Below are positions 13,402 through 37,540 of a stretch of DNA of 43,543 nt, piece by piece (position 1 is the stretch's first letter; the number at the start of each line of letters is the position of its first letter). The notes beneath the pieces are model-generated. The model did not search any database, was not told where the DNA came from, and saw only the letters and a list, made by a program, of their open reading frames with translations. Origin of the DNA: a virus (Duplodnaviria > Heunggongvirae > Uroviricota > Caudoviricetes); the IMG/VR virus record IMGVR_UViG_2541047719_000002, positions 1 to 43,543 of that record; one strand, 5' to 3'. The position numbers and the translations under genes are program-made.

Positions 13402-14774
13402 AACAGGATATCGAAGCGAGCGTTATCGGTGGACTGCTGATTGGTGGATTAACACCAACCGCCAGCGACGTTCTGGCAACGCTGGAGCCGGAAGCGTTTT
13501 CAATTCCGCTCTACAGGAAAGCCTTCGAGGTTATCCGCAAGCAGGCGAGAAACAGAAACCTAATCGATGCGCTGATGGTTGCCGAGGCGTGCGGAGAGGA
13601 GCATTTCACGTCAATCCTGATGACCAGCAAAAACTGCCCGAGTGCCGCAAACCTGAAGGGATATGCCGGAATGGTCGCGGATAACTATCACCGCCGTCTG
13701 GTGCTGGAAATCATGGATGAAATGCGTGAACCAATTCAGAGCGGAACCATCGACGCATCGAGTCAGGCGATGGATGAACTTGTAAAGCGTCTTTCAGTCA
13801 TCAGAAAGCCCCGTGACGAGGTTAAACCTGTACGGTTAGGGGAAATCATTACTGACTACACTGACACGCTTGACAGGCGTCTGAGGAACGGAGAAGAGTC
13901 AGATACCCTGAAGACCGGAATCGAAGAACTTGATGCCATCACCGGAGGGATGAACGCGGAAGACCTGGTGATAATCGCTGCTCGTCCTGGTATGGGGAAA
14001 ACCGAACTGGCGCTGAAGATTGCCGAAGGCGTTGCAAGCCGCGTTATTCCTGGTTCTGACGTCCGGCGCGGGGTATTGATTTTCTCAATGGAAATGAGCG
14101 CATTGCAGATTGCAGAGCGAAGCATTGCCAACGCCGGGAGGATGTCGGTTAGCGTACTGCGAAATCCTGCATCGATGGATGACGAAGGCTGGGCGCGTGT
14201 TGCTAACGGCATAAGTCAGCTTGCAGATTTGGATGTATGGGTAGTCGATGCCTCGCGGTTATCGGTCGAAGAAATACGCTCAATCGCAGAACGGCACAAA
14301 CAGGAAAATCCAAACCTCTCACTCATCATGGTGGATTATCTTGGCCTGATTGAGAAGCCGAAAGCAGATCGCAACGACCTCGCAATTGCTCACATCTCCG
14401 GAAGCCTGAAGGCGATGGCGAAAGACCTGAAAACGCCTGTTATCTCCCTAAGTCAGCTTTCACGCGATGTTGAGAAGCGACCAAACAAACGCCCGACAAA
14501 CGCAGATTTGCGTGATTCAGGAAGCATTGAACAGGACGCAGACTCAATCATCATGCTCTATCGGGAAGCGGTATATGACGAGAACAGTAGCGCCGCGCCA
14601 TTTGCTGAAATCATCGTGACGAAAAACCGTTTTGGCTCGCTTGGTACGGTTTACCAGCGGTTCTGCAACGGACACTTTGTTGCATGTGACCAGGATGAAG
14701 CCAGACAGATTTGCACAGCATCAAATGCACCTGCTGCACGTGGCAGACGATATGCACAAGGGGCTGACGTATGA
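13398..14774 (+). CDS. Replicative DNA helicase (DnaB family, P22 gene 12-like)
   Basis: 458-aa ORF with DnaB N-terminal domain and Walker A ([13 protein letters not shown]) and RecA-like core motifs. Confidence 0.9.
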
Positions 14775-34109: not shown

Positions 34110-36217
34110 GTTTACCAGAGGGGTTTGTTCTGGATGAACAGCCTGATAACTCACAACTTCCTGATGGCTTTGTGCTTGATTCCCAACCAGAACAGCAGCA
34201 ATCTCCTTTGGTTTCACCAGAGGAAAATTCCAGACAGGAAAATGTTGTTAATAATGCTAACGGTTTCGACCGTTTTATGTATGGCGTTCTCAGTGGATTG
34301 ATGGATGTTGGTAAAGGTGTTGGCCTGTTTCAGGATATGACACCAGAAGAGCAAGCCGCAATTCAGTCTCTACAGCAGAAGTTAGCGGCAAAACCATCAA
34401 CCGCACAAGATGTTGGTGAGTTTGTTGGACAAGCAGCGCCATTTGTTAGTGGTGGTGGGATTATTTCTCAGGTTCCGAAAGGGGCGGCAAGGCTGGCTGC
34501 CGCCGCAGGGCTTGGTGCTGGAGAAGGGGCTATTGTAGCCAATGGAACAAATGGCGATGTTGCTTCCGGCGCTGCTATTGGCGCTGTGGCTGGCCCTGTA
34601 GCCGAGATTGTTGGTCCAGCGCTTGGGAAGATTGCAGGAAAAATTAAAAATAGTGCCGGGGATATTTATCGCTCATCCGTAGGGATGGGGAGTAAATCAT
34701 CTAAAGCAACGTTAAAGAAAGCTGCTGGCGCAATGGATAATAAATTTATTGGCGGGCAACGAGCTATTCAAGGTTTCGCCAATGAAGTTAATCCTGATTT
34801 TAACGCGATAAATGCCATCCGTGAGCTAGAACTGGAAAATTATGCCACTCCAGGAATGATCTCTAATAATCCTGCTGTCAGGGCTCTTGATAATGCAGTG
34901 GCAAGTCTCCCTGGAACAGAGATTAGTGAGGCGCATAAGCGCTTTATTACTGAATTAGGAAGAAAAGCTGATGAAATGATAACTTCATTTGGGGGAAACC
35001 TTGATAAGCAACTGGTTTCTGACAGGCTTGCAGATAATTTTGATAAAACCATTTCATCATTACAAAATCAGTCAGATAACATCTACAACAAAATTGCCGA
35101 AAAGGTTCCAGTAAGAGACCGTATTGAGGCAACCAATACATTGAATTTTTTAGAGGATTTTGCTGATGACATAGGTGGAATTGATGAATTATCTCCAATA
35201 ATGAAGCGGACATTGAACCGACTTGATCCAAACACCTTGCCAACGTATGGGCGTTTAGATCTCGCTAGAAAGCAGGTTGGGCAAGCTATTGGCAAAGGCT
35301 CTGGCCCATTCAAGGATGAAGAAACAGGTGTTCTTAAAAAGTTATATGCAGCTATAACAGATGACCAACAGGCTGTCGCAGAAAAATATGGCGCAGGGGA
35401 GTTATGGACGCTTGGTAAGGAGTTGGTAAAAAAACGAAAATCCATTGAAGATGATGCCGTAACCGTTTTGGGTAGAAAACTTCAGCAATCAGCAATTCCA
35501 AAAGTTGAAAGTGCCGTTGTTAATATGGCAAAAGGAAACGGTGGTGACTTTAGGCAATTAATGAAGTCAATTCCAAAGGATATGCGGCAGGAAGTTGCGC
35601 TCACCTCAATGAATAAAGCATTTACCAGCTATGCTAAATCACCAGGTCAGCAATTAGGGGTTGATGGATTTGTAAAATGGTATAACGGAATGTCACGCAA
35701 TGGGGCCAATATGAAGGCTCTCCGTGATGCTATTGGCACAGATGCATCAAAGCGCCTTGATACGATTTATCAAGCTGCCAAGGCTATGAATAGACTCAAT
35801 ACTGGTAAGCAGTATGCTAGCAGCCTTGTGGATCAGCAAGTTAATAACTTTCTGAAGGAAAAGGGTAGTCTAGCAAAAATTTATGGAATAGCCTCAAAAG
35901 CTGCTGCGGCGGAAGGTGTTACAAGCTTATCTGGTCTTCCTGGTGTAGGTGCAACAGGGGTGATAACGTCCGCATTGATGTCAGGGAAAACAAGCAGGAT
36001 AAAGGCTGCTGATGCTCTACTGTCTTCTCCTGAGTTTAAATCAATGCTATTTCGCCTGCAAAACGCACCAGTAGACAGAGCAGAAGTGAGACGCGCAATA
36101 GAAAGGAAACTGATGCAATCTGGGGCATTTAAGAGATGGGAGAAAACCCTATCAACAGATGAAGCAAAAACCATTGCCCGCACGGGGATTATTACATGGC
36201 TCGCTAGTGACAGTTAG
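34094..36217 (+). CDS. Ejection protein (P22 gp16-like)
   Basis: 707-aa ORF, last gene of the ejection-protein set. Confidence 0.7.
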   Translation: MATNVGLPEGFVLDEQPDNSQLPDGFVLDSQPEQQQSPLVSPEENSRQENVVNNANGFDRFMYGVLSGLMDVGKGVGLFQDMTPEEQAAIQSLQQKLAAKPSTAQDVGEFVGQAAPFVSGGGIISQVPKGAARLAAAAGLGAGEGAIVANGTNGDVASGAAIGAVAGPVAEIVGPALGKIAGKIKNSAGDIYRSSVGMGSKSSKATLKKAAGAMDNKFIGGQRAIQGFANEVNPDFNAINAIRELELENYATPGMISNNPAVRALDNAVASLPGTEISEAHKRFITELGRKADEMITSFGGNLDKQLVSDRLADNFDKTISSLQNQSDNIYNKIAEKVPVRDRIEATNTLNFLEDFADDIGGIDELSPIMKRTLNRLDPNTLPTYGRLDLARKQVGQAIGKGSGPFKDEETGVLKKLYAAITDDQQAVAEKYGAGELWTLGKELVKKRKSIEDDAVTVLGRKLQQSAIPKVESAVVNMAKGNGGDFRQLMKSIPKDMRQEVALTSMNKAFTSYAKSPGQQLGVDGFVKWYNGMSRNGANMKALRDAIGTDASKRLDTIYQAAKAMNRLNTGKQYASSLVDQQVNNFLKEKGSLAKIYGIASKAAAAEGVTSLSGLPGVGATGVITSALMSGKTSRIKAADALLSSPEFKSMLFRLQNAPVDRAEVRRAIERKLMQSGAFKRWEKTLSTDEAKTIARTGIITWLASDS

Positions 36218-36441
36218 TCAACTTTGGTTATTTTGCCTTCTTTTTCTTGATGAACTTTGCATCCATCATCTTTTGATAGCCAAACTAAAAACTTTAAAAC
36301 CTTAAACACAAGTACGGATACTGTAATGAAAGCACCAATTGCAATTATTGCCAGTGAAATTATTTGCATTGGTGCTTTTAATGCAGGGAAAATAGCGTAA
36401 ATGATCGCGAAAACAGTAATTATGAGGAACCATCGCTTCAC
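36214..36441 (-). CDS. Hypothetical two-TM inner-membrane protein (moron; SieA position)
   Basis: 75-aa ORF, GTG start with AAGGAGG RBS; two hydrophobic helices; convergent with gene 16. Confidence 0.5.
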   Translation of the reverse strand: MKRWFLIITVFAIIYAIFPALKAPMQIISLAIIAIGAFITVSVLVFKVLKFLVWLSKDDGCKVHQEKEGKITKVD

Positions 36442-36471
36442 ACCAACCTCCTTAGTTTTTCACAGGATACC

Positions 36472-36837
36472 ATGAAAAAAGTTAACATTGGAAACGTACC
36501 AAAGATGCTCGTTCCGCTCTTTGAGAGCGGTACAATTGTGTTTTGTAGAGACTTTCCAGAATGGCAACGCCTGCATCAAAAACTTGGCGTTGACGTGCAT
36601 GACTCGGACGCCAACGGAGCATCTCATACAATGAGTAGCGAGAATGGTGTTTTGCATGTGATAGGCGTGTTCAATGGCAAACTATCTACCATTGCCCATG
36701 AGTGCGCTCACATGGCATTCGATATCTGCTCAAGGGTCGGTGTTGATGTTGAACCAGGAAGAGCCAACGAGACTTACTGCTACTTAATGAGCAGGCTTGT
36801 TGAGTTCTGCGAGAGACATATCAAAAAGCCGGAGTGA
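36472..36837 (+). CDS. Hypothetical small protein with HExxH zinc-metallopeptidase-like motif
   Basis: 121-aa ORF, ATG start; motif AHECAHMAFD with downstream Glu candidates (VEPGRANE). Confidence 0.55.
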   Translation: MKKVNIGNVPKMLVPLFESGTIVFCRDFPEWQRLHQKLGVDVHDSDANGASHTMSSENGVLHVIGVFNGKLSTIAHECAHMAFDICSRVGVDVEPGRANETYCYLMSRLVEFCERHIKKPE

Positions 36838-36845
36838 CCCGGCTT
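36828..36845. terminator. Candidate bidirectional terminator between convergent moron genes
   Basis: GCCGG-AGTGAC-CCGGC hairpin flanked by A-run on one side and T-rich tract on the other. Confidence 0.45.
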
Positions 36846-36850
36846 GATTA

Positions 36851-37030
36851 TTACTTTTTGCTGTCTGGAGTTCGCTTATCCAATACCCAGCCATGACCTG
36901 GCTTTGTTGTTGGTGGAAGCCTTTCGTTGTCCTTGACGGTGGCAAAATTGTCTTTCTTACCGCCGCGTGGGCCAACTTCTTGGTATATTCCGCCGTTTTT
37001 TCCTGTGTTTTCACCTGGTTTTTTCGCCAT
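36851..37030 (-). CDS. Hypothetical small hydrophilic protein (possibly YjzC-like)
   Basis: 59-aa ORF from ATG 37028-37030 with GAGGT RBS; Gly/Lys/Pro-rich; own promoter-like TTGACT-18-AATATT upstream (37095..37066, minus strand). Confidence 0.45.
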   Translation of the reverse strand: MAKKPGENTGKNGGIYQEVGPRGGKKDNFATVKDNERLPPTTKPGHGWVLDKRTPDSKK

Positions 37031-37117
37031 GATATACCTCAACATACACCCGTTATTGGGCGATTAAATATTGATCTCATTTTATAAGTAGTCAATATGG
37101 CCCAGGTAAATGAAAAA

Positions 37118-37135
37118 ATTAACCAGCCATCAGGC
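37118..37135 (-). terminator. Rho-independent terminator (minus strand)
   Basis: Minus-strand CCAGCC-TGAT-GGCTGG followed by TTAATTTTTT, just downstream of 37141..37323. Confidence 0.45.
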
Positions 37136-37140
37136 TGGTA

Positions 37141-37323
37141 TTAGTCACATTCTATTTCTTTTGTCGAGGTCCATACATAAGGATCTGAGCAAACAACCTC
37201 TCCATTTATCATGACGTCATAGCCCATTAGATATGAGTTACCACCAACAATCTGAGCGGCTATGACGCTAATGCTGGCGGCGCAGGCTGCACCAAAAACG
37301 AAACCAATTAATATATTTTTCAT
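37141..37323 (-). CDS. Hypothetical small exported or membrane-anchored protein
   Basis: 60-aa ORF, ATG start, hydrophobic N-terminus, two Cys in the mature part. Confidence 0.4.
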
Positions 37324-37354
37324 TTTAATTCCAAATAGTTATAGGATGAAAGTT

Positions 37355-37540
37355 ATGACCATAGAAGAACGTCTGAACAACATTGAGTTGAACCAAACCC
37401 TGCTTGACCAGCGACTTTCAGATCTTGAGCTTAAAGATCTAGATGCGCAAATATCAGAAGCAGAAGCCAAACTCTCCAGCTTAAATCACCGTAAGAAGCA
37501 AATCCGCGACAGAATTACTCAGGGACGCGGAAGTTGTTGA
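37355..37540 (+). CDS. Hypothetical small coiled-coil protein
   Basis: 61-aa ORF from ATG 37355 (AGGA RBS at 8-nt spacing); heptad-like Leu pattern. Confidence 0.35.
   Translation: MTIEERLNNIELNQTLLDQRLSDLELKDLDAQISEAEAKLSSLNHRKKQIRDRITQGRGSC

What the first reader, a model, noticed from the sequence alone, without database searches (positions are those of the whole stretch)
36472..36837. 121-aa protein with an HExxH motif: possible minimal zinc metallopeptidase
The ORF has AHECAHMAFD followed 13-19 residues later by Glu residues that could be a third zinc ligand, within a protein too small for a classical protease. It is divergently arranged with a two-TM protein. Standalone HExxH proteins in prophages can act as derepression proteases (ImmA-like) or effectors; the target here is unknown.
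Basis: seen in the sequence. Interest (0 to 1): 0.65.

Follow-up and report, generated by a model that had tools for sequence, protein, structure and literature searches.

The report
Small phage zinc-protease-like gene hkcC
The 121-residue ORF is a real, strongly conserved gene (hkcC of phages HK620 and P22, function unknown) from a large phage-only family whose only invariant residues form a zinc-protease active-site signature; its target is unknown and it is probably not a repressor-cleaving enzyme.

Summary
Observation confirmed. ORF 36472-36837 (+) encodes 121 aa with HECAH at residues 76-80. The window is a P22-like (Lederbergvirus) phage. The ORF is HK620 'hkcC', listed in the literature as a P22 'ant moron' gene of unknown function and left unannotated in the P22 reference records.

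It is a real gene: 27 of 30 polymorphic sites fall at codon position 3. An exhaustive profile search finds 546 cluster representatives, mostly standalone 105-140 aa proteins. Across 132 aligned members H76, H80 and E100 are invariant and E77 is present in 131, with Y104 nearly invariant. This is a gluzincin-type HExxH...NE signature.

The AlphaFold model is confident (pLDDT 89), but no solved structure matches significantly. No curated family claims it (PHROG 1365, unknown function). Only sub-threshold SprT-like similarity recurs.

The family also occurs in lytic N4-like, T7-like and crAss-like phages, and hkcC persists in loci with no Arc/Mnt/Ant genes. An ImmA-like derepression role is therefore not supported. 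The divergent two-TM gene is a swappable cassette in the sieA slot. The conserved partner is the convergent downstream orf59a (YjzC-like), linked across at least six genera.

Verdict: a probable minimal zinc metallopeptidase carried as a late-operon accessory gene, substrate unknown. Moderately interesting and directly testable in a classic model phage.

The parts
36472..36837 (+). hkcC: 121-aa ORF (13.6 kDa, pI 6.4, no signal peptide or TM segment), predicted minimal zincin-type metallopeptidase
   Evidence: ORF. Equals HK620 hkcC (H31). PHROG 1365, E = 1.7e-39. Purifying selection. Family of 546 representatives. Model pLDDT 89.
36697..36711 (+). Codons for H76-E77-C78-A79-H80 (HExxH): inferred two zinc ligands and the catalytic base, on predicted helix 71-88
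   Evidence: H76 and H80 invariant in 132/132, E77 in 131/132. Helix assignment.
36766..36783 (+). Codons for N99-E100-T101-Y102-C103-Y104: 'NExxCY' motif at the N-terminus of predicted helix 100-116. E100 is the inferred third zinc ligand; Y104 is a candidate transition-state stabiliser.
   Evidence: E100 132/132, Y104 128/132, N99 97/132, C103 108/132. Helix assignment.
36464..36467 (+). AGGA Shine-Dalgarno, 4 nt before the ATG
   Evidence: Read from the sequence.
36472..36502 (-). Region equivalent to the P22 P_sieA promoter, embedded in the first ~10 codons of hkcC. It would drive the leftward cassette gene.
   Evidence: By homology with the curated P22-pbi annotation (13861-13891). This stretch is identical to P22. 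Function here was not tested.
36826..36845 (.). GC-rich hairpin between the convergent stop codons. It is an efficient intrinsic terminator for leftward transcripts (P22 t_mnt) and weak for rightward ones.
   Evidence: P22 annotation. A hairpin with different stem sequences is present at the same place in five other genera.
36851..37030 (-). orf59a (HK620 'HkcD'): 59-aa, basic (pI 9.9), weakly YjzC-like protein. Conserved convergent partner of hkcC.
37067..37095 (-). Promoter-like TTGACT-17-AATATT upstream of orf59a. It is conserved, together with its leader, in Rosenbergiella, Xenorhabdus and Proteus prophages.
36214..36441 (-). 75-aa two-TM ORF in the sieA slot. It is a context feature (a swappable cassette) and not part of the conserved module.

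Best explanation
hkcC encodes a small cytoplasmic zinc metallopeptidase of the zincin/gluzincin type.

Inferred mechanism: Zn2+ is held by H76 and H80 on the active-site helix and by E100 at the start of the following helix. E77 activates the water. Y104, one helical turn after E100, helps stabilise the transition state. The substrate peptide docks against the beta-hairpin (residues 49-66) that precedes the active-site helix.

The gene is a non-essential accessory passenger of the late operon. It points the same way as genes 16 and 9, has no conserved promoter of its own, and is reached by late transcripts that read through the 'ant moron'.

It belongs to a large family found almost only in phages and prophages, including lytic ones. 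Its job is therefore a general phage-versus-cell function: most likely limited proteolysis of a specific host or co-resident-element protein (host takeover or counter-defence). It is not cleavage of P22 immunity repressors.

In the hkcC subfamily it travels as a two-gene convergent module with orf59a, which has its own promoter and is probably expressed from the prophage.

Shown here: the gene is real and under constraint; family size; the invariant H-E-H-E(+Y) pattern; a confident fold; the orf59a linkage; independence from immI.

Inferred: metal binding, catalysis, timing of expression, and the nature of the substrate.
For: - ORF and motif.
- Purifying selection: 27/30 polymorphic sites at codon position 3, 30 synonymous vs 4 non-synonymous.
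- Family size: 546 representatives at E <= 1e-3, 151 at <= 1e-10, mostly 105-140 aa.
- Invariant columns: only H76, E77, H80 and E100 among 70 members at 22-74% identity; same result in 62 more apart from one E77K.
- Spacing: H80 to E100 is 20 residues within an 'NE' motif. From my knowledge, this matches thermolysin (H146 to E166, NExxSD).
- Model: pLDDT 89, pTM 0.83, order beta-beta-alpha-beta-beta-alpha(HExxH)-alpha(E).
- Recurrent sub-threshold similarity to zincins: SprT-like in 13 of 132 members, plus DUF5700, Aminopep, M78 and M50B. SPRTN 6mdx ranks third in Foldseek-PDB. BFVD structural neighbours labelled SprT-like, Metalloprotease or IrrE. PHROG 'peptidase' hit for one member.
- Presence in lytic phages and variable positions.
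- Start tightly coupled to the upstream late gene in several prophages.
- Late read-through of the ant moron: PMC2629481.
Against: - No curated family reaches threshold.
- No experimental data exist on zinc binding, activity, expression timing or phenotype.
- HExxH zincin-like folds are not always peptidases.
- Counter-defence genes are usually early, whereas hkcC in P22-likes lies in the late operon.
- The region is dispensable for plaque formation in the laboratory (classical immI deletions; my knowledge).
Confidence: 0.6

Rival explanations
1. Protease-partner module. HkcC acts on, or is held in check by, the small basic protein Orf59a. For example, Orf59a is made constitutively from the prophage and is removed by HkcC once late transcription starts; or Orf59a is an inhibitor or adaptor of HkcC.
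For: - The convergent hkcC/orf59a pair, with a hairpin between the stop codons, is conserved in 69/80 P22-like loci, in 37/38 diverged viral loci, and in Rosenbergiella, Klebsiella, Xenorhabdus, Proteus and Pasteurellaceae prophages of a different morphotype.
- orf59a has its own conserved promoter and leader.
- The two proteins carry complementary charge (pI 6.4 vs 9.9).
- Phage-derived protease/inhibitor pairs have precedent (PMC8235301).
Against: - Most of the family has no orf59a neighbour: Orf129 paralogues, lytic phages, 11/80 P22-like loci, L009 and L022.
- YjzC genes in Firmicutes phages have no HExxH neighbour.
- Adjacent morons can be co-inherited without interacting.
- A linked co-fold could not be run.
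Confidence: 0.2
2. SprT/Wss1/ArdC-like protease that works on DNA-bound proteins. It would clear protein adducts or roadblocks from phage DNA before packaging, or degrade DNA-bound host nucleases (anti-restriction).
For: - SprT-like is the only Pfam family that recurs among weak hits (13/132).
- SPRTN is the best-ranked protease fold in Foldseek-PDB.
- Several longer members carry strongly basic C-terminal tails.
- Members often sit next to packaging or DNA-metabolism genes.
Against: - All SprT-like hits are below the gathering score.
- The third ligand is Glu, not the His of SPRTN/Wss1 (my knowledge of those families).
- HkcC itself is mildly acidic and has no basic tail or zinc ribbon.
Confidence: 0.15
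3. ImmA/IrrE-like derepression protease that cleaves Mnt, Arc or the C2 repressor.
For: - HExxH plus a downstream Glu in a small domain resembles the M78 logic.
- In P22 the gene lies in the immI neighbourhood, and Arc-like genes are also nearby in Proteus and Klebsiella prophages.
- A few BFVD neighbours are labelled IrrE at low probability.
Against: - Peptidase_M78 hit in 1/132 members at E = 0.099.
- No adjacent HTH repressor.
- The family is present in lytic N4-like, T7-like, phiKMV-like and crAss-like phages.
- hkcC is retained at >=98% identity in 13/80 loci without any immI gene, and in L010, L013 and L015 without Arc/Mnt.
- The Orf129 paralogue sits between the lysis and terminase genes.
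Confidence: 0.05
4. Zincin-like fold used for something other than proteolysis: a metal-dependent hydrolase of a small molecule, or a non-catalytic metal-stabilised binding protein.
For: - No significant similarity to any characterised peptidase.
- Very small size.
- Some HExxH zincin-like families are not peptidases (my knowledge).
Against: - The catalytic Glu of HExxH is conserved in 131/132 members. A purely structural metal site would need only the ligands.
- A conserved Tyr one turn after the third ligand fits peptidase chemistry.
Confidence: 0.1

Closest known systems
SprT-like zincins (Pfam PF10263; E. coli SprT, SPRTN, Wss1, ArdC C-terminal domain)
   Same: HExxH on a helix preceded by a beta-hairpin. 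This is the only curated family that recurs among weak sequence hits (13/132 members). SPRTN is the top protease in the Foldseek-PDB ranking. Some structural neighbours among phage proteins are labelled SprT-like.
   Different: No member reaches the Pfam gathering score. The putative third ligand is a Glu 20 residues downstream rather than a His. There is no zinc ribbon or DNA-binding module. Structural matches are not significant.
Gluzincins of the thermolysin type (MEROPS clan MA(E): HExxH + NExx...)
   Same: HExxH, then an invariant Glu exactly 20 residues after the second His within an 'NE' motif at the start of the next helix. A conserved aromatic residue (Y104) lies nearby.
   Different: About 120 aa in total versus >300 aa. 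No detectable sequence or fold homology to M4, M1 or M13. No pro-peptide or secretion signal.
Minigluzincins (proabylysin, projannalysin; ~100-aa archaeal zincins; recalled from the literature)
   Same: Standalone catalytic zincin domain of about 100-120 residues.
ImmA/IrrE (Peptidase_M78, COG2856) anti-repressor proteases
   Same: Small HExxH...E domain encoded by mobile elements.
   Different: No M78 profile match, different His-Glu spacing (as I recall, 27 in IrrE), no partner HTH repressor, and presence in lytic phages.
HK620 hkcC / P22 'hkcC' and ST64T/L 'Orf129', epsilon34 gp70 (PHROG 1365)
   Same: hkcC is the same gene, 99% identical. Orf129 and gp70 are paralogues at 38-40% identity with the same invariant residues.
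   Different: These are names only. No function, motif or family assignment has been published as far as the searchable literature shows.

Membership tests
Zincin / gluzincin metallopeptidases (clan MA) | HExxH motif on an alpha-helix | tested here: met
   H76-E77-x-x-H80 within predicted helix 71-88. Invariant across the family.
Zincin / gluzincin metallopeptidases (clan MA) | Third zinc ligand Glu on the next helix, about 18-70 residues downstream | tested here: met
   E100 is invariant in 132/132 members, lies 20 residues after H80 and sits at the N-terminus of predicted helix 100-116. Ligand geometry was not measured.
Zincin / gluzincin metallopeptidases (clan MA) | Zincin fold: beta-sheet with a substrate-binding edge strand, a backing helix and an active-site helix, recognisable by structure comparison | tested here: inconclusive
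Zincin / gluzincin metallopeptidases (clan MA) | Zinc binding and peptide-bond hydrolysis | not testable with these tools
   Requires biochemistry.
SprT-like (PF10263) | Profile match above the Pfam gathering score | tested here: not met
   The query has no hit. 1/70 members hit at E = 1e-4 and 12/62 at E >= 0.009, none at threshold.
SprT-like (PF10263) | Third ligand His shortly after HExxH (as in SPRTN and Wss1; my knowledge) | tested here: not met
   No conserved His downstream of H80. The conserved residue is E100.
ImmA/IrrE (Peptidase_M78, PF06114) | Profile match to M78 | tested here: not met
   None for the query. 1/132 members at E = 0.099.
ImmA/IrrE (Peptidase_M78, PF06114) | Genetic pairing with the HTH repressor it cleaves; restricted to temperate or integrative elements | tested here: not met
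   The neighbours are the sieA-slot cassette and orf59a. immI genes are absent from 13/80 loci and from several genera. Members occur in lytic phages.
PHROG 1365 (phage protein family, unknown function) | Full-length profile match | tested here: met
   E = 1.7e-39 over residues 1-121. All 70 diverse members match.
Toxin-antitoxin pair (HkcC toxin / Orf59a antitoxin) | Obligate co-occurrence of the toxin with its antitoxin, usually co-directional in one operon | tested here: not met
   hkcC occurs without orf59a in 11/80 loci, in L009 and L022, and in all remote members. The genes are convergent, not co-transcribed.

The most novel reading that the evidence does not exclude
HkcC and its roughly 550 known cluster representatives form a previously unrecognised, phage-specific family of minimal (~120 aa) gluzincin proteases with a fold not represented among solved structures. 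These proteases would cleave a specific host or rival-element protein (a defence or exclusion factor). In the hkcC clade the protease would be wired to the prophage-expressed YjzC-like protein Orf59a as a two-state lysogeny/lysis switch, a protease-partner module that moves between podovirus and siphovirus late operons as a unit.
Probability: 0.15. Interest if true: 0.75.

Novelty: new variant of a known kind. Interest (0 to 1): 0.45.

Why it matters
P22 and HK620 are reference phages. Yet the most conserved element of their hypervariable 'ant moron' is missing from the P22 RefSeq annotation and has no assigned function.

Recognising it as a probable metalloprotease, and as one member of a large phage-wide family (PHROG 1365), turns hundreds of 'hypothetical proteins' into a concrete hypothesis. 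That hypothesis can be tested cheaply with point mutants of four residues in a genetically tractable system.

If the substrate is a host defence or exclusion protein, this would add a proteolytic mechanism to the known repertoire of phage counter-defence. If the substrate or regulator is Orf59a, it would define a new type of mobile two-gene module.

If the protein turns out inactive or phenotype-less, the finding remains a routine annotation improvement.

Tried and rejected
- **Artefact of regulatory DNA.** I considered that the ORF might be an artefact, because the curated P22 record places P_sieA and t_mnt at its two ends. Rejected on codon-position statistics and deep homology.
- **Curated libraries.** Pfam, NCBIfam and PADLOC gave nothing for the query. 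The only hits were chance lantibiotic matches to 'HEC...'.
- **PDB sequence searches.** Two family profiles returned only motif-level, non-significant hits: myroilysin, peptidyl-Lys metalloendopeptidase and an N4 vRNAP segment.
- **Fused domains.** Longer members carry only low-complexity basic or coiled-coil tails.
- **Recurrent neighbours in remote members.** None found.
- **Ancient YjzC/HExxH pairing in Firmicutes phages.** Not found.
- **Additional diverged loci.** Searches with the Pasteurellaceae and Klebsiella proteins found nothing in viral contigs.
- **Literature.** Searches for hkcC, orf59a, PHROG 1365 and small phage HExxH proteases found no functional study. The phage L virion-proteomics supplement was not held.
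- **'GNAT acetyltransferase' label.** The annotation in KR296688 has no support.

Full report
**What is there.** The ORF is at 36472-36837 on the + strand, exactly as described. It encodes 121 aa with an ATG start and an AGGA ribosome-binding site 4 nt upstream. AHECAHMAFD is residues 75-84. Glu residues follow at positions 94 and 100. A 75-aa ORF with two hydrophobic segments lies divergently, with the two start codons 30 nt apart.

**Identity of the window and of the gene.**
- The window is a P22-like (Lederbergvirus) phage or prophage of the E. coli/Salmonella type. It carries the ejection-protein gene 16 homologue, then this region, then mnt-like, arc-like, sar RNA, ant and the tailspike.
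- The ORF is 99% identical to HK620 'hkcC: unknown'.
- Villafane et al. [quoted passage not shown]
- The P22 reference records (NC_002371, AF527608) do not annotate it. They place P_sieA over its first ~30 nt and t_mnt over its stop codon.
- Automatic annotations call it hypothetical. One calls it a GNAT acetyltransferase, without support. PGAP names it 'hypothetical protein' WP_000757525.1.

**Is it a gene?** Yes.
- Among 81 near-identical copies there are 37 DNA alleles but only 5 protein variants.
- Of 30 polymorphic sites, 27 are at codon position 3. That gives 30 synonymous against 4 non-synonymous changes in this frame.
- Full-length homologues extend to 43% identity in a word-indexed search.
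- An exhaustive HMMER profile search of 1.84 billion representatives finds 546 at E <= 1e-3 and 151 at E <= 1e-10. Almost all are standalone proteins of 105-140 aa.

**Is the motif meaningful?**
- A lone HExxH is not. Shuffling predicts 0.67 occurrences among the window's ORFs, and P = 0.025 within this protein.
- The family settles the question. In 70 members at 22-74% identity to the query, the only invariant columns are H76, E77, H80 and E100.
- In 62 further members the same holds apart from one E77K.
- Y104 is present in 128/132, G49 in 131/132, and an N precedes E100 in 97/132.
- HExxH followed 20 residues later by 'NE' at the start of the next helix is the gluzincin arrangement. From my knowledge, thermolysin has H142-E143-x-x-H146 ... 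N165-E166.

**Structure.**
- AlphaFold2 on an 18-sequence alignment gives pLDDT 89 and pTM 0.83.
- The elements are strands 11-13 and 21-25, helix 28-37, hairpin 49-56/59-66, helix 71-88 carrying HExxH, and helix 100-116 beginning with E100. That order is compatible with a minimal zincin.
- Foldseek-PDB has nothing below E = 0.1, with human SPRTN (6mdx) third at E = 0.18.
- Against predicted viral structures there are 26 matches at E < 1e-3, with TM up to 0.83. Nearly all are uncharacterised phage proteins; a few are labelled SprT-like, Metalloprotease or IrrE.
- I could not read the model coordinates, so the ligand geometry is unmeasured.

**Relation to curated families.**
- Pfam, NCBIfam and PADLOC give nothing for the query.
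- PHROG 1365 (unknown function) covers it end to end and matches all 70 diverse members.
- Scanning members individually, SprT-like (PF10263) is the only family that recurs: 1/70 at E = 1e-4 and 12/62 at E >= 0.009, all below threshold.
- Other putative zinc-peptidase families (DUF5700, Aminopep, M78, M50B) appear sporadically.
- PDB sequence searches with two profiles give only motif-level, non-significant hits.
- The family therefore sits in zincin sequence space near SprT-like but is not a member of it. Its putative third ligand (Glu) also differs from the His of SPRTN and Wss1 (my knowledge).

**Genomic behaviour.**
- The family is phage-wide and its position varies.
- A 38-40% identical paralogue (ST64T/L Orf129, epsilon34 gp70) lies between the lysis genes and terminase, immediately upstream of dec.
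- Lambdoid mEp phages carry a longer version after the lysis genes.
- N4-like phages carry it among small early-type genes.
- A phiKMV-like phage has it between the ligase and RNA polymerase genes, and a T7-like phage after the lysis genes.
- Longer members add only basic or coiled-coil low-complexity tails.
- This distribution, including strictly lytic phages, argues against a function tied to lysogeny control.

**Within P22-likes.**
- hkcC is the constant element between two variable slots.
- In 80 viral loci it is at least 98% identical, while the 360 nt upstream fall into at least 14 unrelated sequence types (the sieA slot).
- Downstream, orf59a is present in 69 loci and absent in 11. Arc, Mnt and Ant are all absent in 13.
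- Homology between the window and P22 begins precisely at the start/SD of the leftward gene. The window's 75-aa two-TM gene is therefore a cassette replacing sieA and re-using its expression signals. It is not a conserved partner of hkcC.

**The conserved partner.**
- Immediately downstream and convergent lies orf59a (36851-37030, -). It encodes 59 aa with pI 9.9 and a weak YjzC Pfam hit at E = 1.7e-3.
- The same arrangement occurs in siphovirus-type prophages of Rosenbergiella, Klebsiella oxytoca, Xenorhabdus and Proteus penneri, and in a Pasteurellaceae genome. There hkcC sits inside the tail-gene cluster. HkcC identity falls to 46-63% while Orf59a stays at 65-80%.
- It also occurs in 37 of 38 further diverged viral loci.
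- A GC-rich hairpin with differing stem sequences lies between the two stop codons in every lineage. A TTGACT-17-AATATT promoter with a conserved leader precedes orf59a.
- orf59a therefore looks like an autonomous promoter-gene-terminator moron, presumably expressed from the prophage. In P22 it also lies on the mnt transcript.
- hkcC has no conserved promoter and is often translationally close-coupled to the preceding late gene.
- Late transcripts are known to read through this moron to gene 9 (PMC2629481). The hairpin is a good terminator only leftwards. Late expression of hkcC is thus the simplest inference, but it is untested.
- The linkage is not universal. hkcC occurs without orf59a. In complete E. 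coli genomes hkcC is in 131 and orf59a in 116 of 5,426. YjzC genes of Firmicutes phages have no HExxH neighbour.
- A toxin-antitoxin reading therefore fails.

**Conclusion.**
It is unproven structurally and biochemically.
- The ImmA-like or immunity-related reading is not supported.
- The best model is a late-operon accessory zincin that cleaves a specific cytoplasmic target of host or rival-element origin, in this clade travelling with orf59a.
- The gene is known by name but uncharacterised. The family is absent from curated protease classifications as far as these libraries show.
- I rate it a new variant of a known kind, of moderate interest, and readily testable in P22.

Noticed in passing
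window 36214-36441 (-): A 75-aa two-TM ORF occupies the P22 sieA slot and re-uses sieA's SD/start region and the promoter embedded in hkcC. Homology to P22 starts at about 36437. At least 14 unrelated cassettes occupy this slot among 80 P22-like loci, so it is probably an alternative superinfection-exclusion or membrane moron.
   Followed up: partly
L009 4349-4885 (-); E. coli NZ_CP062211 (hit H148): In some P22-like prophages the sieA slot holds a 178-aa ClpP-like protease gene (Pfam CLP_protease, E = 2.8e-13) plus a 109-aa coiled-coil gene. This is a second, unrelated protease gene next to hkcC.
   Followed up: no
window 36851-37030 (-), promoter 37067-37095 (-), terminators 36826-36845 and 37122-37139 (-): orf59a (HK620 HkcD) is a YjzC-like 59-aa basic protein with its own promoter and leader, conserved across genera, and bracketed by terminators. 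YjzC-family genes are also lone opposite-strand inserts in the late operons of Clostridium, Brochothrix and Streptococcus temperate phages.
   Followed up: partly
window 37141-37323 (-), 37262-37540 (+), 37550-37867 (-): Three extra small genes relative to P22 lie between orf59a and the mnt-like gene. They are a 60-aa protein with an N-terminal hydrophobic segment (PHROG 37095), an XhlA-family coiled-coil protein (PGAP name), and a 105-aa protein with a signal-peptide-like N-terminus whose start overlaps the stop of the mnt-like gene.
   Followed up: no
window 38357-38423 (-): sar antisense RNA (Rfam RF00262, 71.6 bits, E = 4e-14) lies between the arc-like and ant genes. A promoter-like site sits at 38431-38459 (-) and a 14-bp-stem terminator at 38361-38392 (-). 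The immI circuitry therefore appears intact, although Mnt and Arc here are only about 40% identical to those of P22.
   Followed up: partly
PDB 11fw / 11go / 9pnq chains (N4-type virion RNA polymerase, residues ~2187-2234): The family profile weakly matches a strand plus 'TLIHELVHAS' segment in the C-terminal part of giant N4-type virion RNA polymerases (E = 0.4-0.6, not significant). This may hint at a zincin-like module there.
   Followed up: no
L003 3001-3794 (epsilon34 gp70-gp71), also phage L and ST64T: The Orf129 paralogue of hkcC is always immediately upstream of dec, the capsid decoration protein gene, with overlapping stop and start codons. The two appear to be inherited together.
   Followed up: no
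P0028, P0079, L021 (Arsenophonus MAG): Some database copies of hkcC are frameshifted or fused to out-of-frame sequence. These are either pseudogenes in decaying prophages or assembly errors.
   Followed up: no
NC_002371 / AF527608 (P22 references); KR296688 (phage 34): There are annotation gaps and errors. hkcC is missing from the P22 reference annotations and is mislabelled 'GNAT family acetyltransferase' in phage 34.
   Followed up: yes
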